In this document: piece by piece, positions 20,744-38,201 of the stretch
Numbering within the stretch: the first letter of the stretch is position 1
Layout: each line of letters begins with the position of its first letter
Assembly: GCA_964467515.1 (NCBI GenBank)
Contig: CAYXQP010000004.1
Location: 1-39,300 of the forward strand
Direction: 5' to 3'
Length of the DNA: 39,300 nucleotides
Source of the DNA: an uncultured Eubacteriales bacterium
GTDB taxonomy: Bacteria; Bacillota; Sulfobacillia; DYIH01; JBBIPI01
Made by a program: the position numbers and the translations under genes
Notes under the pieces: generated by a model
Databases searched by the model: none
What the model was told of the DNA's origin: nothing
The model's input: only the letters and a program-made list of their open reading frames with translations

Positions 20744-21184
20744 ATGGCCAGGACCTTCGAGATCCAGGTCTTCACGCCGGAGCGGACGGTGGTGCGGGCC
20801 AAGGCCGAGTACGTGAGCCTGCCCACGGCGGACGGGCTCTACGGCGTGCTGGGCGACCACGCTCCCATGGTGGGGCTCCTGCGCCCCGGGGTCGTCCACT
20901 TCCGGGGCGGCGGAGAGACGCAGGTGGTGGCCGTCATGGGGGGTTTCTTCCAGGTGCTGCCCGATCGCACGGTGGTGCTGGCGGACGAGGCCGAGCTGCC
21001 TGAGGAGGTGGACGTGACGGAGGCCCTGGCGGAGCGCGACCGCGCCCTGGCCGCCCTGGAGGCGGGCGGGGAGCAGGAGGAGGTGGCGCGGGCCAAGGAG
21101 GCCCTGGAGCGGGCCCTGGCCCGCCTCCCGGCCGACGGCCGCGGGGTGGCGGGTCAGAGGACGTCCTGGGCGCGCCAGCAGTGA
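20744..21184 (+). CDS. atpC: ATP synthase F1 subunit epsilon
   Basis: Beta-sandwich with GVLGDHAPM and VMGGF, plus a C-terminal helical hairpin; last atp gene. Confidence 0.95.
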   Translation: MARTFEIQVFTPERTVVRAKAEYVSLPTADGLYGVLGDHAPMVGLLRPGVVHFRGGGETQVVAVMGGFFQVLPDRTVVLADEAELPEEVDVTEALAERDRALAALEAGGEQEEVARAKEALERALARLPADGRGVAGQRTSWARQQ

Positions 21185-21360
21185 TCGAAGGATCCCTGGT
21201 GGGCACCGTCGCAGAATGGCATGTTCTCGGAGCGGCCGCACCGACAGAGGGCCACCTGCTCCCCGCCGGCATGTGCCCGACCCGTCCCGTCCAGGAGCGT
21301 GACCGGCCCTTGGACCAGGTACGGGCCGCGGTCCAGCACGCGGATGGTCACCTCGGCCAT
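21154..21360 (-). CDS. CDGSH iron-sulfur domain protein (68 aa)
   Basis: GPYLV and ALCRCGRSENMPFCDGAH match the C-x-C-x2-S-x3-P-x-C-D-G-(S/A)-H [2Fe-2S] motif. Confidence 0.93.
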   Translation of the reverse strand: MAEVTIRVLDRGPYLVQGPVTLLDGTGRAHAGGEQVALCRCGRSENMPFCDGAHQGSFDHCWRAQDVL

Positions 21361-21555
21361 GGTGTCACCCCCTTTCCCTGCCGATGTGAGGATACAGGGA
21401 GCAGTTTCTTAGGGCAAGTAATTACCGTAAGGAAACTTTGTATACCATTACTCCATCCTCCGACGGCGGGCTCCCCGGGAACGGCGGTGGTATCCTGCCG
21501 AGTCCGGGCGGTGCCGGAGGGCCGGCCGATGGCCGTCCGCCCCCGGAGGAGAAGG

Positions 21556-21588
21556 GGAAGCGCCCCGGAATGACACCGGGGCGCTTCC
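21556..21588 (-). terminator. Hairpin/likely terminator downstream of ctaD-like gene
   Basis: Perfect 13-bp stem GGAAGCGCCCCGG-N7-CCGGGGCGCTTCC, followed on the minus strand by a pyrimidine run (weak U tract). Confidence 0.6.
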
Positions 21589-21653
21589 GCGGAAGGCATC
21601 CCGTCCGTCCCTGACGCCCGGCAGCCTAAGCGGCCGCGGTCGCGGGACGGGGA

Positions 21654-23555
21654 TCAGGCGTGTTGCGCCGCCGCCTTGGCGGTGCCCTCCTCCTCGGTTT
21701 CCAGATAGTAGCCGTCGGCCTTCTCCAGGGCCCAGCCGAGGACGCCCAGGAGGATGATCACCAGCCCGGCTACCAGCCCCGGCACGCTGGGAGAGATGGC
21801 GCCGAAGCCGCCCACCAGGAGCCCCAGCCCCACCACGGCCGGCATGAAGGAGGGGGAGGGCATGTGGACGGCGTTGCCGTGGCGGTGGTGGTCCTCCTCG
21901 GCCGGCAGGATGTGACCGTTGCCGTGGGTCTTCTCGTACCAGAGGGCTTCCTTGCCGCGCACGAGGGGCAACCGGGCGAAGTTGTAGGCCGGCACCGGGC
22001 TGGGCGTGGCCCACTCCAGGGAGCGGCCCAATCCCCAGGGATCGGCTCCCGCGCGGCGACCGCTGGCCAGGCTCTCGATCATGGCTATCACCAGGGTTAG
22101 GACTCCGAGGGCCTGCAGGTAGGCGCCGATGGTCTCGATGGAGTTGAGGGGTCCCCAGCCGGAGTCGGGGATGTAGGTATAGACGCGCCGGGGCTGGCCC
22201 ATGAGGCCGGCTATGAGCTGCGGGAAGAAGGTCATGTTGAAGCCGATGAAAAGGATCCAGAAGCTGGGACGGCCGATGGCCTCGTTGAGCATCTTGCCCG
22301 TCATCTTGGGCCACCAGTAGGTTATGCCCGCCAGGAGCCCGAAGACGATGGCGCCGATGGCCACGTAGTGGAAGTGGCCCACGATGTACATGTTGTCCTG
22401 GAACTGCCGGTCCACGCTGGAGCTGGCGTTGACGAGGCCCGTCAGGCCGCCGATGTAGAACAGGAAGAAGAAGGCGCTCACGTAGTGCATGGGCAGCGTG
22501 AACCGGACCTTGCCTCCCCAGAGGGTGCCCAGCCAGATGAAGACGAAGATGGCGGCCGGTACGGAGACCGCCTTGGTCGAGATCGCGAAGGCCGTGTTGA
22601 CGGTGCTGCCGGAGCCCACCGTGTACATGTGGTGCAGCCAGACGATCCAGCTGAGGATGCCGATGGTGGAGATGGCCGCTACCATGGACCGGTAGCCGTA
22701 GAGGGGCTTGCCGGCGAAGGTGGGCAGCACCTCGGACACGCAGGCCAGGGGCGGCAGCAGCAGGATGTAGACCTCCGGGTGGCCGAAGAGCCAGAACATG
22801 TGCTGCCAGAGCAGCACGTCGCCTCCCCCGCCCGCCGCGAAGAAGCCGGTGCCCAGGACGCGGTCGAAGTAGAGGAGGATGAGGGCGAGCATGAAGGGGA
22901 TGCCGGCCGTCAGGCCCAGGATGGCCGTCATGAAAGTGAACCAGACGAGGGGCGGCATGTCCATGAGCCCCATGCCGGGCGCCCGCAGCTTGAGGATGGT
23001 CACGATGAAGTTGAGGCTGGTGAGCATGGTGCTGAGCATGCCCAGCTCGACGCCCACCAGGTAGGTGTTCATCCCGACGCCGGGGCTGAAGGGCTTGGTG
23101 CTGAGGGGCACGTAGGCGAACCAACCGGCGTCCGCCGCGCCTCCCAGGAACCAGCCGGCATTGATGATGACGCCGCCGGCCAGGAGACACCAGTAGCTCA
23201 TCATGTTCATGCGCGGGAAGGCCACATCCCGCGCGCCGATCATGACGGGCATGACGAAGTTGAGGATGCCCCAGATGATGGGCGTGGCCGCGAAGAAGAT
23301 CATGATGGTACCGTGCTGGGTGAGCACCTGGTTGTAGGTCTCGCCCACCACCAGGTTGTTGAGCGGGCGGGCCAGTTGGGTGCGGATGAGCAGGGCCTCG
23401 ACGCCTCCCACCACCAGGAACAGGAGGCCCGTGACGAAGTACATGATGCCGATGCGTTTGTGGTCCACGGTGTTGATCCACCCGAGGAAGCCGCTGTCAG
23501 CCCGCCGTTTCAGCACTGGTAGCGCGCCTTCCGCTCTGTGTGCCGCTACCGCCAT
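21654..23555 (-). CDS. ctaD: Heme-copper oxidase subunit I, A1-type, Bacillus CtaD-like, orphan and atypical
   Basis: TVDHKRIG, QHG, DVAFPRMN, WLFGHPEVY, HHM, HFHY, PRR, and a C-terminal HMPSPS two-helix extension. ATG at 23555 has a good RBS (ORF extends to 23681). Confidence 0.95.
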   Translation of the reverse strand: MAVAAHRAEGALPVLKRRADSGFLGWINTVDHKRIGIMYFVTGLLFLVVGGVEALLIRTQLARPLNNLVVGETYNQVLTQHGTIMIFFAATPIIWGILNFVMPVMIGARDVAFPRMNMMSYWCLLAGGVIINAGWFLGGAADAGWFAYVPLSTKPFSPGVGMNTYLVGVELGMLSTMLTSLNFIVTILKLRAPGMGLMDMPPLVWFTFMTAILGLTAGIPFMLALILLYFDRVLGTGFFAAGGGGDVLLWQHMFWLFGHPEVYILLLPPLACVSEVLPTFAGKPLYGYRSMVAAISTIGILSWIVWLHHMYTVGSGSTVNTAFAISTKAVSVPAAIFVFIWLGTLWGGKVRFTLPMHYVSAFFFLFYIGGLTGLVNASSSVDRQFQDNMYIVGHFHYVAIGAIVFGLLAGITYWWPKMTGKMLNEAIGRPSFWILFIGFNMTFFPQLIAGLMGQPRRVYTYIPDSGWGPLNSIETIGAYLQALGVLTLVIAMIESLASGRRAGADPWGLGRSLEWATPSPVPAYNFARLPLVRGKEALWYEKTHGNGHILPAEEDHHRHGNAVHMPSPSFMPAVVGLGLLVGGFGAISPSVPGLVAGLVIILLGVLGWALEKADGYYLETEEEGTAKAAAQHA

Positions 23556-23741
23556 CGCCTCTTCCCTCCCCACTGAGATTCGAGACTCAACGGAAGCCCT
23601 GGCCTCGTGGCCGGGCCCTGCTCGCTCCCCCCGCCTGCCATCCCCCCTTTGCGGTCCGTCGCCGGAAACAGGCTCAGCCAACCCCCGGAGTGAGGTTGGC
23701 AGAGCTGGCCGGTAACCCGGATCACGGCCCAGTTGCCCAAG

Positions 23742-23770
23742 ATTTTACGCAAAGATGTTTTTTATAGAAA
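23742..23770 (-). promoter_or_regulatory. Putative sigmaA promoter for ctaD-like gene
   Basis: Minus strand TTTCTA-N17-TAAAAT in the only AT-rich patch of the intergenic region. Confidence 0.55.
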
Positions 23771-23936
23771 CAAGCGTCCATGGCTGCACGGGTGAGATAG
23801 CCGAAATAACTAGTGATAGTGGCGGTAAAAATGGGCTATGGTTGGATGACATTGGCCATAAATCGGCTTAGAGGGGCGATTCTCGCCGGCGGTGCCGAGG
23901 GGGGCGGCCGGGGAAACATAAGGCCGGTGACGGCGG

Positions 23937-25193
23937 GTGGCGGCCATCCTGGTGCGGGGGGGCAGACCTCTCGAGGGGGAGGTCACGGTGCAGACGGCCA
24001 AGAACGCCATGCTGCCCGTCCTGGCCGCCACCATCCTCGCGGGCGGGGAGTGCGTCCTCCGGCGCGTGCCGCCCCTCTACGACGTCCACGTAATGTGCCA
24101 GCTCCTTCTGCGCCTGGGCGTCCAGGTCCGCCTCCGCGAACCGGGCACCCTGCACGTCACCCCCGCCGAGACCCTCTTTTACGAGACGCCCCATGAGCTG
24201 GTGCGCCGGATGCGCGCTTCCGTGCTGGTGATGGGGCCCCTTTTGGCCAGGGTCGGCCGCGCCAGGGTGTCCCTCCCCGGAGGCTGCGCCATCGGCAACC
24301 GACCCGTGGACCTGCACGTGCGCGGCCTGGAGGCCATGGGCGCCAGGTTCTCCGTCCGCTACGGCTTCATAGAGGCCGAGGCTGACGCGCTCAAGGGCGC
24401 CAGGGTCTACCTGGACTATCCCAGCGTGACCGCCACCGAGAACGTCATGATGGCGGCCACCCTGGCCGAGGGCACCACCATCATCGAGAACGCTGCCGGC
24501 GAGCCGGAGGTGGTGGACTTGGCGGACTTCCTGCGGGGGATGGGAGCCCGCATCGCCGGCGCGGGGAGCCGGGTCATCGAGGTCGAAGGAGTAGCGGCGC
24601 TGGGGGGGACGGAGCACACCTGCATTCCCGACCGCATCGAGGCCGGCACCTACCTCCTGGCCGGAGCCGTCTCGGGCGGCCACGTGGTCGTCAAGGGGGC
24701 GGTCCCCCATCACCTGACCCCCCTCCTGGCCAAGCTGGAGGAGGCAGGGGCCGCCGTAACGGTGGGACCCGGCACCGTCAGCGTGCGCGGACCCTCGCGC
24801 CCGCGGGCCACCGACGTCAAGACCCTTCCTTACCCGGGGTTCCCGAGCGACCTGCAGGCACCCATGATGGCCTTCCTGGCGGTGGCGGAAGGTATCAGCA
24901 TCTTCACGGAGACCGTTTTCGACAACGGTTTCCTCCATGTGGAGGAACTCAAGCGGATGGGCGCCGACATACGGGTGGAGGGTGCCACGGCCGTCGTGCG
25001 GGGCGTGGAGGCATTGACGGGGGCGCCCGTCCGGGCGACGGACCTGCGGGCGGGGGCGGCCCTGGTCCTGGCGGGACTGCGGGCCCAGGGCGAGACGCGG
25101 GTCGGCGGCCTCGCCCACCTGGACCGTGGTTATGTCAACCTGGTGGGCAAGATGGCCTCCCTGGGCGCCGACATCAGGCGGGTGGAAGACTGA
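23937..25193 (+). CDS. murA: UDP-N-acetylglucosamine 1-carboxyvinyltransferase (divergent)
   Basis: [19 protein letters not shown] (catalytic Cys loop), [31 protein letters not shown]. Confidence 0.95.
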
Positions 25194-25260
25194 GCCTCTG
25201 TCCTGAGCCCCGAGGGCATACCCATGTTTTCAGCGACCGCTCAGACAGGGTGGTGGCCGG

Positions 25261-37535: not shown

Positions 37536-37673
37536 TAGCGGCGCGGGCTACTTTGCGTGCCGTTGGCGGGATACTCGGCTCCAGGCCCCACGTGCAGCCG
37601 ATCCGCGACGGCGGCCATGTCGGTGCCGGGCGACGCGGCGCGGCTACGGACGCCGCGAGTGGTGGGAGGTCCG

Positions 37674-38201
37674 ATGGCGAGGAGACGGTTTCTCCGGGCG
37701 GTGGTGGTGGTGGCGGTTTCCGTGGCGGTGCTGGCGGGACCGGTGGTCGCCGCGGCCCAGGAGGGGGCTCCGGCCAGGCTGACCCTCGCGCAGGAAAAGG
37801 TGGCCCTGGAAATCTCCAAGCTCCTGCGCTGTCCCGTCTGCACGGGTCAGTTGGTGGCTGAGTCCAGCTCGGAAAAGGCCCTGGAGATCCGGGAGGAGAT
37901 CAGGCGCATGGTGGCCGAGGGCAAGACGCGGCAGGAGATCCTGGACTACTATGCGCGCCGTTACGGGGACTGGATCCTGGCCAGCCCCCCGCTGCGGGGG
38001 GCCGGGCTGGTGACCTGGCTCTGGCCGGTGCTGGTCTTCGGCGTGGGCGCGCTCCTGATAGCCGCCTACGTCAAGCGGGTGCGCGCCCGTGCCGGCGCGG
38101 CGGTCCCCGGCGCGCGGCCGGAGGGCGCGCGGCCCGAGGGTGGGGGGCCCGGGGCGGCCAGCGAGGAGGAGTACCTGCGCCGGCTCCGGGACTACCTCTG
38201 A
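37674..38201 (+). CDS. ccmH: CcmH/CycL/NrfF-family cytochrome c biogenesis protein
   Basis: Signal/TM segment, LRCPVC, AESSS..A...R..I...V..G.T..EI..YY..RYG.WIL..PP, second TM helix; GGGAGG RBS. Confidence 0.85.
   Translation: MARRRFLRAVVVVAVSVAVLAGPVVAAAQEGAPARLTLAQEKVALEISKLLRCPVCTGQLVAESSSEKALEIREEIRRMVAEGKTRQEILDYYARRYGDWILASPPLRGAGLVTWLWPVLVFGVGALLIAAYVKRVRARAGAAVPGARPEGARPEGGGPGAASEEEYLRRLRDYL

What the first reader, a model, noticed from the sequence alone, without database searches (positions are those of the whole stretch)
21654..23555. Stand-alone ctaD with no subunit II/III/IV or heme A genes
Seen: the gene is monocistronic on the minus strand, with its own putative promoter and a 13-bp terminal hairpin, inserted between atpC and murA. 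No ctaC/E/F, ctaA/B or sco gene is in the window. Helix I lacks the quinol-binding Arg/Asp pair and there is no TM0, so it is not a quinol oxidase subunit. Established: Bacillota ctaD normally lies in ctaCDEF. Inference: it may be an exchangeable, separately regulated catalytic subunit that swaps into an oxidase encoded elsewhere.
Basis: partly seen in the sequence, partly recalled or inferred. Interest (0 to 1): 0.65.

Follow-up and report, generated by a model that had tools for sequence, protein, structure and literature searches.

The report
Lone spare cytochrome oxidase subunit I gene
This is an intact, separately transcribed extra copy of the catalytic subunit of a cytochrome c oxidase; the enzyme's other subunits and haem A genes lie in a complete operon that very probably belongs to the same organism, so it looks like a spare catalytic subunit, a kind already noted in Bordetella and Pseudomonas.

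Summary
Window 21654-23555 (-) encodes a 633-aa A-family haem-copper oxidase subunit I. It sits alone between atpC/CDGSH and murA. The 39.3-kb contig holds no ctaC/E/F, ctaA/B or copC.

The gene has a conserved upstream block and a 13-bp terminator hairpin. It lacks the quinol-oxidase markers. Among 111 related subunit I loci, none lacks a neighbouring subunit II or III gene.

It is very probably not the only subunit I. It belongs to a tight clade of three paralogue clusters:
- c3: this lone gene.
- c4: a second lone gene, upstream of glmU.
- c1: a copy inside clpX-ctaCDEF-ctaAB-copC-lonB.

The c1 member P0004 lies on a 29,826-nt contig with ctaC, ctaE and ctaF. An exact clpX-ctaC-ctaD(P0004) contig occurs in the same metagenome runs as the window, at the same depth.

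The lone gene keeps all metal ligands. It is under strong purifying selection (dN/dS 0.076 against its 94% orthologue).

The best reading is a separately regulated alternative catalytic subunit that borrows CtaC/E/F and haem A from the c1 operon. Hybrid assembly, transcription and same-genome linkage are not directly shown. Precedents are Bordetella ctaD2 and P. aeruginosa ccoN4. Interest is moderate.

The parts
21654..23555 (-). Lone ctaD paralogue (cluster c3): 633-aa A1-type haem-copper oxidase subunit I with a C-terminal two-helix extension, as in Bacillus CtaD/QoxB
   Evidence: Pfam COX1 3.8e-143. Aligns over residues 25-623 to B. subtilis QoxB 6kob. All His ligands, GHPEVY, D110 and R456/R457 are present. 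dN/dS is 0.076 against the L081 orthologue.
23564..23569 (-). Shine-Dalgarno GGAGGG, 8 nt before the ATG
   Evidence: Read directly from the sequence. Conserved in L081.
23728..23773 (-). Conserved upstream block: palindrome TGTTT-N7-AAACA (23756-23772) and -10-like TAAAAT (23742-23747). Presumed promoter plus operator, about 175 nt before the ATG
   Evidence: Identical except for one base between the window and L081, while the flanks are about 60-70% alike. The palindrome occurs once in the window and once in L081, and is absent upstream of the c4 and c1 copies. The sigma-70 consensus scan finds no promoter.
21556..21588 (-). 13-bp GC-rich hairpin 66 nt after the stop codon. Probable intrinsic terminator without a U-tract
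   Evidence: Fold -70.9 kcal/mol for the 114-nt stretch, z = -3.64. Conserved in L081 with a compensatory pair change.
21154..21360 (-). 68-aa CDGSH [2Fe-2S] protein gene, co-oriented downstream, with its own AT-rich leader. A neighbour; functional link unproven
   Evidence: Pfam zf-CDGSH 2.3e-18. Same position in L081. None of 38 CDGSH homologue loci elsewhere has a COX1 nearby.
20744..21184 (+). atpC, the last gene of the atpIBEFHAGDC operon; left flank of the insertion
   Evidence: Pfam ATP-synt_DE_N 2e-21.
23937..25193 (+). murA, divergent from ctaD; right flank
   Evidence: NCBIfam murA 1e-162.

Best explanation
The gene is a functional, independently transcribed paralogue of the catalytic subunit I of a caa3-type cytochrome c oxidase. 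It arose by duplication of an operonic ctaD within this high-GC, spore-forming Bacillota lineage and settled between atpC/CDGSH and murA.

The organism very probably also carries the parental operon clpX-ctaC-ctaD-ctaE-ctaF-ctaA/B-copC-lonB, and a second lone paralogue upstream of glmU.

Inferred mechanism:
1. The lone CtaD is made from its own promoter, under a regulator that binds the conserved TGTTT-N7-AAACA site.
2. It receives haem A from the operon's CtaA-CtaB fusion.
3. It assembles with the operon-encoded CtaC (CuA plus cytochrome c domain), CtaE and CtaF.
4. The result is an isoenzyme with altered properties, such as O2 affinity or inhibitor tolerance.

Shown: gene anatomy, selection, paralogue phylogeny, existence of the partner operon in the same samples, and distinct upstream regions. 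Inferred: same-genome linkage, transcription, hybrid assembly and physiological role.
For: 1. The catalytic core is intact: His81/394/396/259/308/309, Y263 and E261 in GHPEVY, D110 and R456/R457.

2. Only five substitutions, all conservative, fall at sites invariant or nearly so in 15 other clade members.

3. dN/dS is 0.076 at dS 0.41 against the 94% orthologue in the same synteny.

4. Tree: c3 (window + P0002), c4 (lone, before glmU) and c1 (operonic) form one clade with 100/100 support. Its sister P0005 is operonic (contexts).

5. Each cluster has one member that diverges 93-97% from the FWPU/FWWM pair: P0124 (the window), P0125 and P0004. Exactly these three are 'not on record' in the look-up of encoding contigs, although the collection lists them on NCBI contigs of 39,300, 9,984 and 29,826 nt.

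6. The 29,826-nt contig also carries COX2 (P0249), COX3 and CtaF.

7. P0249 is encoded exactly on Logan contigs of 2,904 and 3,014 nt. These read clpX-ctaC-ctaD, with 273/273 aa equal to P0004. They are the contigs seen in runs X1 and X2, with a counterpart in X3, at depth 11.5/14.9/7.1. The window's own pieces have depth about 10-11.5, 10-13 and 7-8.

8. The partner CtaC has the CuA motif CFELCGASHARM and a CAACH cytochrome c domain.

9. The upstream regions of c3, c4 and c1 are unrelated.

10. Precedents for lone catalytic subunits forming or proposed to form hybrids: PMC5697931, PMC10790758, PMC11257404.
Against: - No direct proof that the 29,826-nt and 9,984-nt contigs belong to the same genome as the window. 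The link rests on co-abundance in three runs, congruent divergence and the look-up tool's withholding pattern.
- No transcript data.
- No sigma-70 consensus promoter was found.
- Hybrid assembly is untested. It needs CtaC/E/F in excess over the operon's own CtaD.
- The genome is a MAG, so completeness and binning are uncertain.
- The canonical K-channel Lys is missing (Phe337). This holds for the whole clade, operonic copies included, so it does not single out the lone gene.
Confidence: 0.6

Rival explanations
1. It is the organism's only subunit I, and the other oxidase genes are merely scattered. This is the pattern in Mycobacterium and Corynebacterium, where ctaD is monocistronic and ctaC/ctaF and ctaE lie elsewhere.
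For: No partner genes lie on the 39.3-kb contig. The genome is a MAG and could not be searched whole.
Against: - A contig with clpX-ctaC-ctaD (an exact P0004 N-terminus) is in the same three runs at the same depth.
- The 29,826-nt NCBI contig carries ctaC, ctaD, ctaE and ctaF together.
- Related assemblies hold c1, c3 and c4 side by side.
- The tree shows c3 nested among operonic copies.
Confidence: 0.1
2. It is a redundant duplicate with no distinct role, drifting towards loss, or expressed only as a back-up identical in function to the operonic CtaD.
For: Its differences from the clade at conserved sites are few and conservative, so no obvious new function shows in the sequence. In Bordetella, the ctaD2 deletion had no phenotype in the laboratory (PMC11257404).
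Against: - dN/dS is 0.076 over dS 0.41.
- The position, upstream block and terminator are conserved between two species.
- About 21-23% amino-acid divergence from c1 has been kept stably in both lineages.
- The upstream region is unrelated to that of the operon.
Confidence: 0.2
3. It works without subunits II and III as a stand-alone haem-copper protein, for example in peroxide or NO detoxification. It might be served by the neighbouring CDGSH iron-sulfur protein.
For: The CDGSH gene is co-oriented directly downstream in both species. The canonical K-channel Lys and Thr are replaced; from general knowledge of K-channel mutants, this pathway matters less for peroxidase-type turnover.
Against: - The K-channel change is shared with operonic copies that have full CtaC/E/F.
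- CDGSH has its own leader behind a terminator hairpin.
- The 68-aa CDGSH protein consists of little more than the CDGSH domain (residues 12-55), so it is presumably cytoplasmic. Electrons enter subunit I from the outer face via CuA.
- The second lone paralogue (c4) has no CDGSH neighbour.
- None of 38 CDGSH homologue loci has a COX1 nearby.
- No active subunit I-only A-family oxidase is known to me.
Confidence: 0.07
4. The arrangement is an assembly or binning artefact.
For: The source is a metagenome-assembled contig. Logan contigs fragment inside ctaD, where the paralogues are similar.
Against: - Independent contigs in three runs cross both junctions: 21135-22368 and 23274-25200 in X1, with equivalents in X2 and X3.
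- The same gene order occurs on an 88-kb contig of another assembly.
Confidence: 0.03

Closest known systems
Bordetella bronchiseptica ctaD2 (BB4674), a lone aa3-type subunit I beside a complete ctaCDFGE1 operon (PMC11257404)
   Same: Both are A-family subunit I genes standing alone while a full operon with its own ctaD exists elsewhere. Both are proposed to form hetero-complexes with the operon's CtaC/CtaE. In Bordetella, ctaD2 is regulated separately (2.6-fold up at 2% O2).
   Different: Bordetella is a proteobacterium with a 12-helix aa3 type. Here the host is a Bacillota lineage with a caa3 type, a 14-helix subunit I and a relocated K-channel lysine. There are probably two lone paralogues per genome. 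No expression data exist here.
Pseudomonas aeruginosa orphan ccoN3Q3/ccoN4Q4 of cbb3 oxidases (PMC5697931, PMC10790758)
   Same: Orphan catalytic subunits combine with the subunits of complete operons to give isoforms with distinct physiology and their own regulator (MpaR for ccoN4). This is the mechanistic model adopted here.
   Different: Those are C-family oxidases, the orphan loci include ccoQ, and hybrid formation is shown experimentally. Here it is only inferred.
Bacillus-type caa3 oxidase CtaD within ctaCDEF (relatives: Caldinitratiruptor microaerophilus, L082; metagenome contig L172)
   Same: Same fold and length, the same C-terminal extension and GHPEVY A1-type D-channel. The partner CtaC carries CuA and a cytochrome c domain. 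Identity is 55-79%.
   Different: The window's gene is not in an operon. It scores below the NCBIfam CtaD_CoxA equivalog cut-off (629.8 against 670.75). The canonical Lys of helix VIII is Phe, with a Lys nine residues earlier.
Actinobacterial monocistronic ctaD (Mycobacterium/Corynebacterium; structures 6adq, 7rh5)
   Same: ctaD is transcribed alone, away from ctaC and ctaE. The phmmer E-value to 6adq_F is 1.4e-136.
   Different: There ctaD is the sole or main subunit I and the other genes are scattered. Here the other genes sit in an operon that has its own ctaD.

Membership tests
A-family haem-copper oxidase subunit I (Pfam PF00115 COX1) | Full-length profile match above the gathering score | tested here: met
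   477.9 bits against a cut-off of 34.8; profile positions 1-436 of 436.
A-family haem-copper oxidase subunit I (Pfam PF00115 COX1) | Six His metal ligands and the cross-linked Tyr (haem a, haem a3, CuB) | tested here: met
   H81, H396, H394, H259, H308, H309 and Y263 are invariant in alignments A1/A2 and align to the ligands of 6kob/6adq.
A-family haem-copper oxidase subunit I (Pfam PF00115 COX1) | D-channel Asp and Glu (A1 subtype, GHPEVY) | tested here: met
   D110 in GARDVAFPR, N75 and N117, and E261 in GHPEVY.
A-family haem-copper oxidase subunit I (Pfam PF00115 COX1) | K-channel Lys and Thr of helix VIII (R. sphaeroides K362/T359) | tested here: not met
   The sequence reads STKAVSVPAAIFVF where relatives read TMAIAVPTGIKIF: Lys to Phe337 and Thr to Ala334, with a Lys at 328. 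The loss of the canonical Lys and the new Lys at 328 are shared by the whole clade, including the operonic copies; Thr to Ala is confined to the closest subclade, which also includes operonic copies.
NCBIfam TIGR02891 CtaD_CoxA (equivalog) | Score at or above the curated cut-off | tested here: not met
   629.8 bits against a cut-off of 670.75.
Quinol oxidase subunit I (QoxB TIGR02882 / CyoB TIGR02843) | Score at or above the cut-off; helix-I Arg/Asp and helix-II His quinol site; extra N-terminal helix TM0 | tested here: not met
   633.5 against 1015.5 and 555.3 against 1020.35. Arg to Val, Asp to Glu and His to Thr in the alignment to 6kob. Only 24 residues precede helix I.
Orphan catalytic-subunit isoform system (P. 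aeruginosa ccoN4 type; Bordetella ctaD2 type) | Subunit I gene with no subunit II/III gene beside it | tested here: met
   By contrast, 0 of 111 related loci lack such neighbours.
Orphan catalytic-subunit isoform system (P. aeruginosa ccoN4 type; Bordetella ctaD2 type) | A complete operon with its own subunit I elsewhere in the same genome | tested here: inconclusive
   The operon is present in the same runs at the same depth, and on an NCBI contig that is withheld like the window's own.
Orphan catalytic-subunit isoform system (P. aeruginosa ccoN4 type; Bordetella ctaD2 type) | Separate regulation of the orphan | tested here: inconclusive
   A conserved private upstream block and a terminator are present. 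No RNA data.
Orphan catalytic-subunit isoform system (P. aeruginosa ccoN4 type; Bordetella ctaD2 type) | The orphan assembles with the operon's other subunits into an active hybrid | not testable with these tools
   Needs pull-down and activity assays.
Actinobacterial scattered cta genes (monocistronic ctaD as sole subunit I) | ctaD is the only subunit I, and ctaC/ctaE lack a ctaD neighbour | tested here: not met
   The partner contig carries ctaC directly followed by its own ctaD. The relatives' operons are complete.

The most novel reading that the evidence does not exclude
This subsurface Bacillota lineage runs a three-isoform caa3 oxidase. One ctaCDEF-ctaAB-copC operon supplies CuA/cytochrome c, subunits III/IV and haem A. 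Two separately regulated lone catalytic subunits compete with the operonic CtaD for these partners: c3 beside atpC/murA and c4 before glmU. All three use an unconventional K-pathway, with the Lys moved nine residues up helix VIII. This would be the first modular catalytic-subunit swapping shown for an A-family oxidase in Gram-positive bacteria.
Probability: 0.4. Interest if true: 0.6.

Novelty: new member of a known kind. Interest (0 to 1): 0.4.

Why it matters
Hybrid terminal oxidases built from orphan catalytic subunits are proven only for the cbb3 enzymes of Pseudomonas. For A-family (aa3/caa3) oxidases they remain a hypothesis, as with Bordetella ctaD2.

This locus offers a clean natural case in a different phylum:
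- up to two conserved, strongly selected lone ctaD paralogues sit beside one complete operon;
- each has a different upstream region.

It is therefore a good test bed for whether A-family oxidases also diversify by swapping subunit I.

It is also a practical warning for MAG-based metabolic annotation. A lone ctaD does not mean an incomplete oxidase, and counts of ctaD do not equal counts of oxidases.

Tried and rejected
The direct test, COX2/COX3/CtaA/CtaB in the window's own genome, could not be run.
Instead I laid the runs on L168/L169, which came from a collection scan.
- The search for related loci with the protein reached only relatives at 50% identity or less. Neither found the clade.
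- My first clade-specific DNA pattern had one codon too many and found nothing. The corrected pattern found only 4 loci in 185,579 species representatives, so the clade is rare.
- The sigma-70 promoter scan found no site upstream of ctaD.
- No RNA run holds the gene.
- Earlier-findings look-ups found no note of a cta operon in this genome's other two scanned pieces, and no look-alike windows.
- I tested the CDGSH neighbour as a general partner of COX1 and rejected it: 0 of 38 homologue loci have COX1 nearby.
- I considered the K-channel substitution as the mark of a special function of the lone gene and rejected that. Operonic members of the clade share it.
- dN/dS values for the more distant pairs (0.2-0.5) are unreliable because GC3 is about 0.92 and dS is compressed.
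Full report
**What is there**

The window is about 70% G+C. It is the entire 39,300-nt contig of a metagenome-assembled genome: the cluster table lists the window's protein, P0124, on an NCBI contig of exactly that length. Subsurface metagenome runs X1-X3 hold 0.76-0.94 of the sampled words of the stretch 21100-24000.

The gene order is the conserved Bacillus-like backbone:
- rho, prfA, prmC, sua5, rpiB, a deaminase, MazG, a glycosyltransferase and a UDP-GlcNAc 2-epimerase;
- atpI-B-E-F-H-A-G-D-C;
- then murA, spoIID, spoIIID, mbl and flgF/G;
- a GGDEF gene, fabZ, a PALP enzyme, RNase R, a CcmH-like gene and smpB.

Two minus-strand genes lie between atpC and murA. One is the 633-aa COX1 gene (21654-23555). 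The other is a 68-aa CDGSH gene (21154-21360).

- COX1 matches Pfam PF00115 end to end at 3.8e-143.
- The nearest solved structure is B. subtilis aa3-600 QoxB, aligned over residues 25-623 including the C-terminal two-helix extension.
- tblastn with CtaC, CtaE, CtaF, CtaA-CtaB and CopC from the closest operons finds nothing in the window below E=0.03.
- Helix I reads VVGGVE where QoxB reads FRGGVD. The His before helix II is Thr. Only 24 residues precede helix I.
- The NCBIfam QoxB and CyoB scores are far below their cut-offs. CtaD_CoxA is also just below its cut-off, 629.8 against 670.75.
- A perfect 13-bp hairpin lies 66 nt after the stop codon (21556-21588; z = -3.6).
- The consensus sigma-70 scan finds no promoter. 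In the 94% orthologous locus L081, however, the stretch 23728-23773 is identical apart from one base, inside otherwise diverged intergenic DNA. It holds TGTTT-N7-AAACA and TAAAAT.
- L081 keeps the hairpin with a compensatory pair change.
- Logan contigs from three runs cross both junctions of the gene, so the arrangement is real.
- It is also unusual. Among 111 loci of related COX1 genes with at least 3 kb on each side, none lacks a COX2 or COX3 neighbour.

**What it is related to**

In 5.8 billion proteins the close relatives are few: 94% (P0002), 79% (P0003), 76% (P0004, P0005), 73%, 66%, 61% and 55% (Caldinitratiruptor microaerophilus). Below that come Symbiobacteriaceae MAGs and, at about 47%, Bacillus-type CtaD. 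A clade-specific DNA pattern finds only four loci among the species-representative genomes.

Genomic contexts:

| Protein | Identity to window | Context |
|---|---|---|
| P0002 | 94% | same atpC-CDGSH-COX1-murA order |
| P0003 | 79% | alone; 513 nt of non-coding, AT-rich DNA upstream and glmU-prs-pth-mfd-spoVT downstream |
| P0122 (same 90% cluster as P0004) | about 79% | uvrB-tig-clpP-clpX-ctaC-ctaD-ctaE-ctaF-ctaA/B fusion-copC-lonB-lonA |
| P0005, P0007, P0008, P0009, Caldinitratiruptor | 55-76% | canonical ctaCDE(F) operons |

A maximum-likelihood tree puts three clusters into one clade with 100/100 support. They are c3 (window + P0002, lone), c4 (P0003/P0125/P0126, lone) and c1 (P0004/P0122/P0123, operonic). 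Clusters c4 and c1 are sisters (95/96). The operonic P0005 is the outgroup. The lone genes are therefore lineage-specific duplicates of an operonic ctaD.

**Is a full operon in the same organism?**

1. Each cluster has a pair of identical sequences from the FWPU/FWWM assemblies and one member 93-97% identical to them: P0124 (the window), P0125 and P0004. This is the pattern expected if one second species carries all three paralogues.
2. Exactly these three proteins are 'not on record' in the contig look-up. Yet the cluster table lists them on NCBI contigs of 39,300, 9,984 and 29,826 nt. Six other NCBI-only relatives were found. The window's own assembly is evidently withheld, and the other two behave the same way.
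3. The 29,826-nt contig also carries COX2 (P0249), COX3 (P0252) and CtaF (P0255).
4. P0249 is encoded exactly on Logan contigs of 2,904 nt and 3,014 nt. These read clpX-ctaC-ctaD, and the ctaD part is 273/273 aa identical to P0004. Contigs of exactly these lengths appeared when runs X1 and X2 were laid on a related operon. Their depths were 11.5 (X1) and 14.9 (X2), and the counterpart in X3 had 7.1. The window's own pieces in the same runs have depths of about 10-11.5, 10-13 and 7-8.

I put the chance that the ctaCDEF operon is in the window's genome at about 85%. That would fit a cytochrome c-dependent chain. I did not check it.

**Is the lone gene functional?**

All six His ligands are present, together with Y263 and E261 of GHPEVY, D110 and the Arg pair. 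Against 15 other clade members it has only five substitutions at invariant or nearly invariant sites, all conservative: L38M, Y100F, M225L, A359V and W390Y. It also has a five-residue C-terminal tail. dN/dS against its orthologue is 0.076 at dS 0.41.

Helix VIII lacks the canonical K-channel Lys and Thr (Phe337, Ala334) and has a Lys at 328. The loss of the canonical Lys and the new Lys at 328 are shared by the whole clade, including copies inside complete operons. Thr to Ala is confined to the closest subclade, which also includes operonic copies (P0004, P0005). The helix VIII changes are therefore a lineage trait, not a mark of the lone gene.

The partner CtaC has a CuA site and a CxxCH cytochrome c domain, so the enzyme is of caa3 type.

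**Mechanism proposed**

The lone CtaD is transcribed on its own from the conserved block and stops at the hairpin. It is haem-loaded by the operon's CtaA-CtaB fusion. It then competes with the operonic CtaD for CtaC, CtaE and CtaF, giving an isoenzyme. The upstream regions of c3, c4 and c1 share no motif, and the palindrome is unique to c3. This fits different regulation. All of this paragraph is inference.

The CDGSH gene is a conserved neighbour. It has its own leader behind the terminator. It is absent beside c4, and its homologues elsewhere never sit next to COX1. I treat it as a neighbour of unknown relevance.

**Comparison with what is known**

[quoted passage not shown] It is induced 2.6-fold at 2% O2 and proposed to form CtaC1-D2-E1 hybrids. 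Its deletion gave no laboratory phenotype (PMC11257404).
- P. aeruginosa orphan CcoN subunits experimentally form hybrid cbb3 isoforms with their own regulation (PMC5697931, PMC10790758).

The present case is a new member of that kind. It lies in a different phylum and oxidase subtype, probably with two lone paralogues.

**Verdict**

Novelty is 'new member of a known kind', and interest is about 0.4.

Noticed in passing
window 22533-22589 (helix VIII of CtaD); alignment A1: The canonical K-channel Lys is replaced (Phe/Leu/Met) and a Lys sits nine residues earlier (T-K-A-[VI]-S-V-P). This holds across the whole Symbiobacteriaceae/Caldinitratiruptor-related clade, including copies in complete ctaCDEF operons. 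A sister subclade (P0013, P0016-P0018) has Glu at that position (T-E-L-I-S). The Mg-site His is Gln in most of the clade.
   Followed up: partly
L084 514-2403 (FWPU01006722.1); P0125, P0126: A second lone ctaD paralogue (cluster c4) is 84% identical to the operonic copy. It sits behind an AT-rich non-coding stretch and before glmU-prs-pth-mfd-spoVT. A 97% variant (P0125, on a 9,984-nt contig) probably belongs to the window's genome.
   Followed up: partly
window 21154-21360 (-): A minimal 68-aa CDGSH [2Fe-2S] protein gene overlaps the 3' end of atpC convergently by 31 nt. It has a conserved AT-rich leader (TTTCCTT..GGTAATTACTTGC). The position is the same in L081. Homologues elsewhere are only about 50% identical and are scattered over many phyla.
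   Followed up: partly
L172 12955-16621: The related operon encodes a 601-aa CtaA-CtaB (haem A synthase / haem O synthase) fusion. A 615-aa CopC-domain membrane protein follows, between ctaF and lonB.
   Followed up: no
window 37557-38201 (+): A CcmH-type cytochrome c maturation gene (Pfam 2.3e-30) lies directly before smpB, with no other ccm genes on the contig.
   Followed up: no
window 22356-22553, runs X1-X3: Logan contigs break inside ctaD. A 198-nt piece with 9 differences from the window has 2-3 times the local depth (28.3 against about 10 in X1). This is what collapsed, similar paralogues in one sample would give.
   Followed up: no
L168/L169 (JBBIPI01, 'Clostridiales bacterium MTF170219_bin_3'): This related MAG comes from run X5 of the same study (contigs identical). 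It carries two complete oxidase operons (P0009 with ctaAB; P0005 with CopC). No lone ctaD was detected in it.
   Followed up: partly
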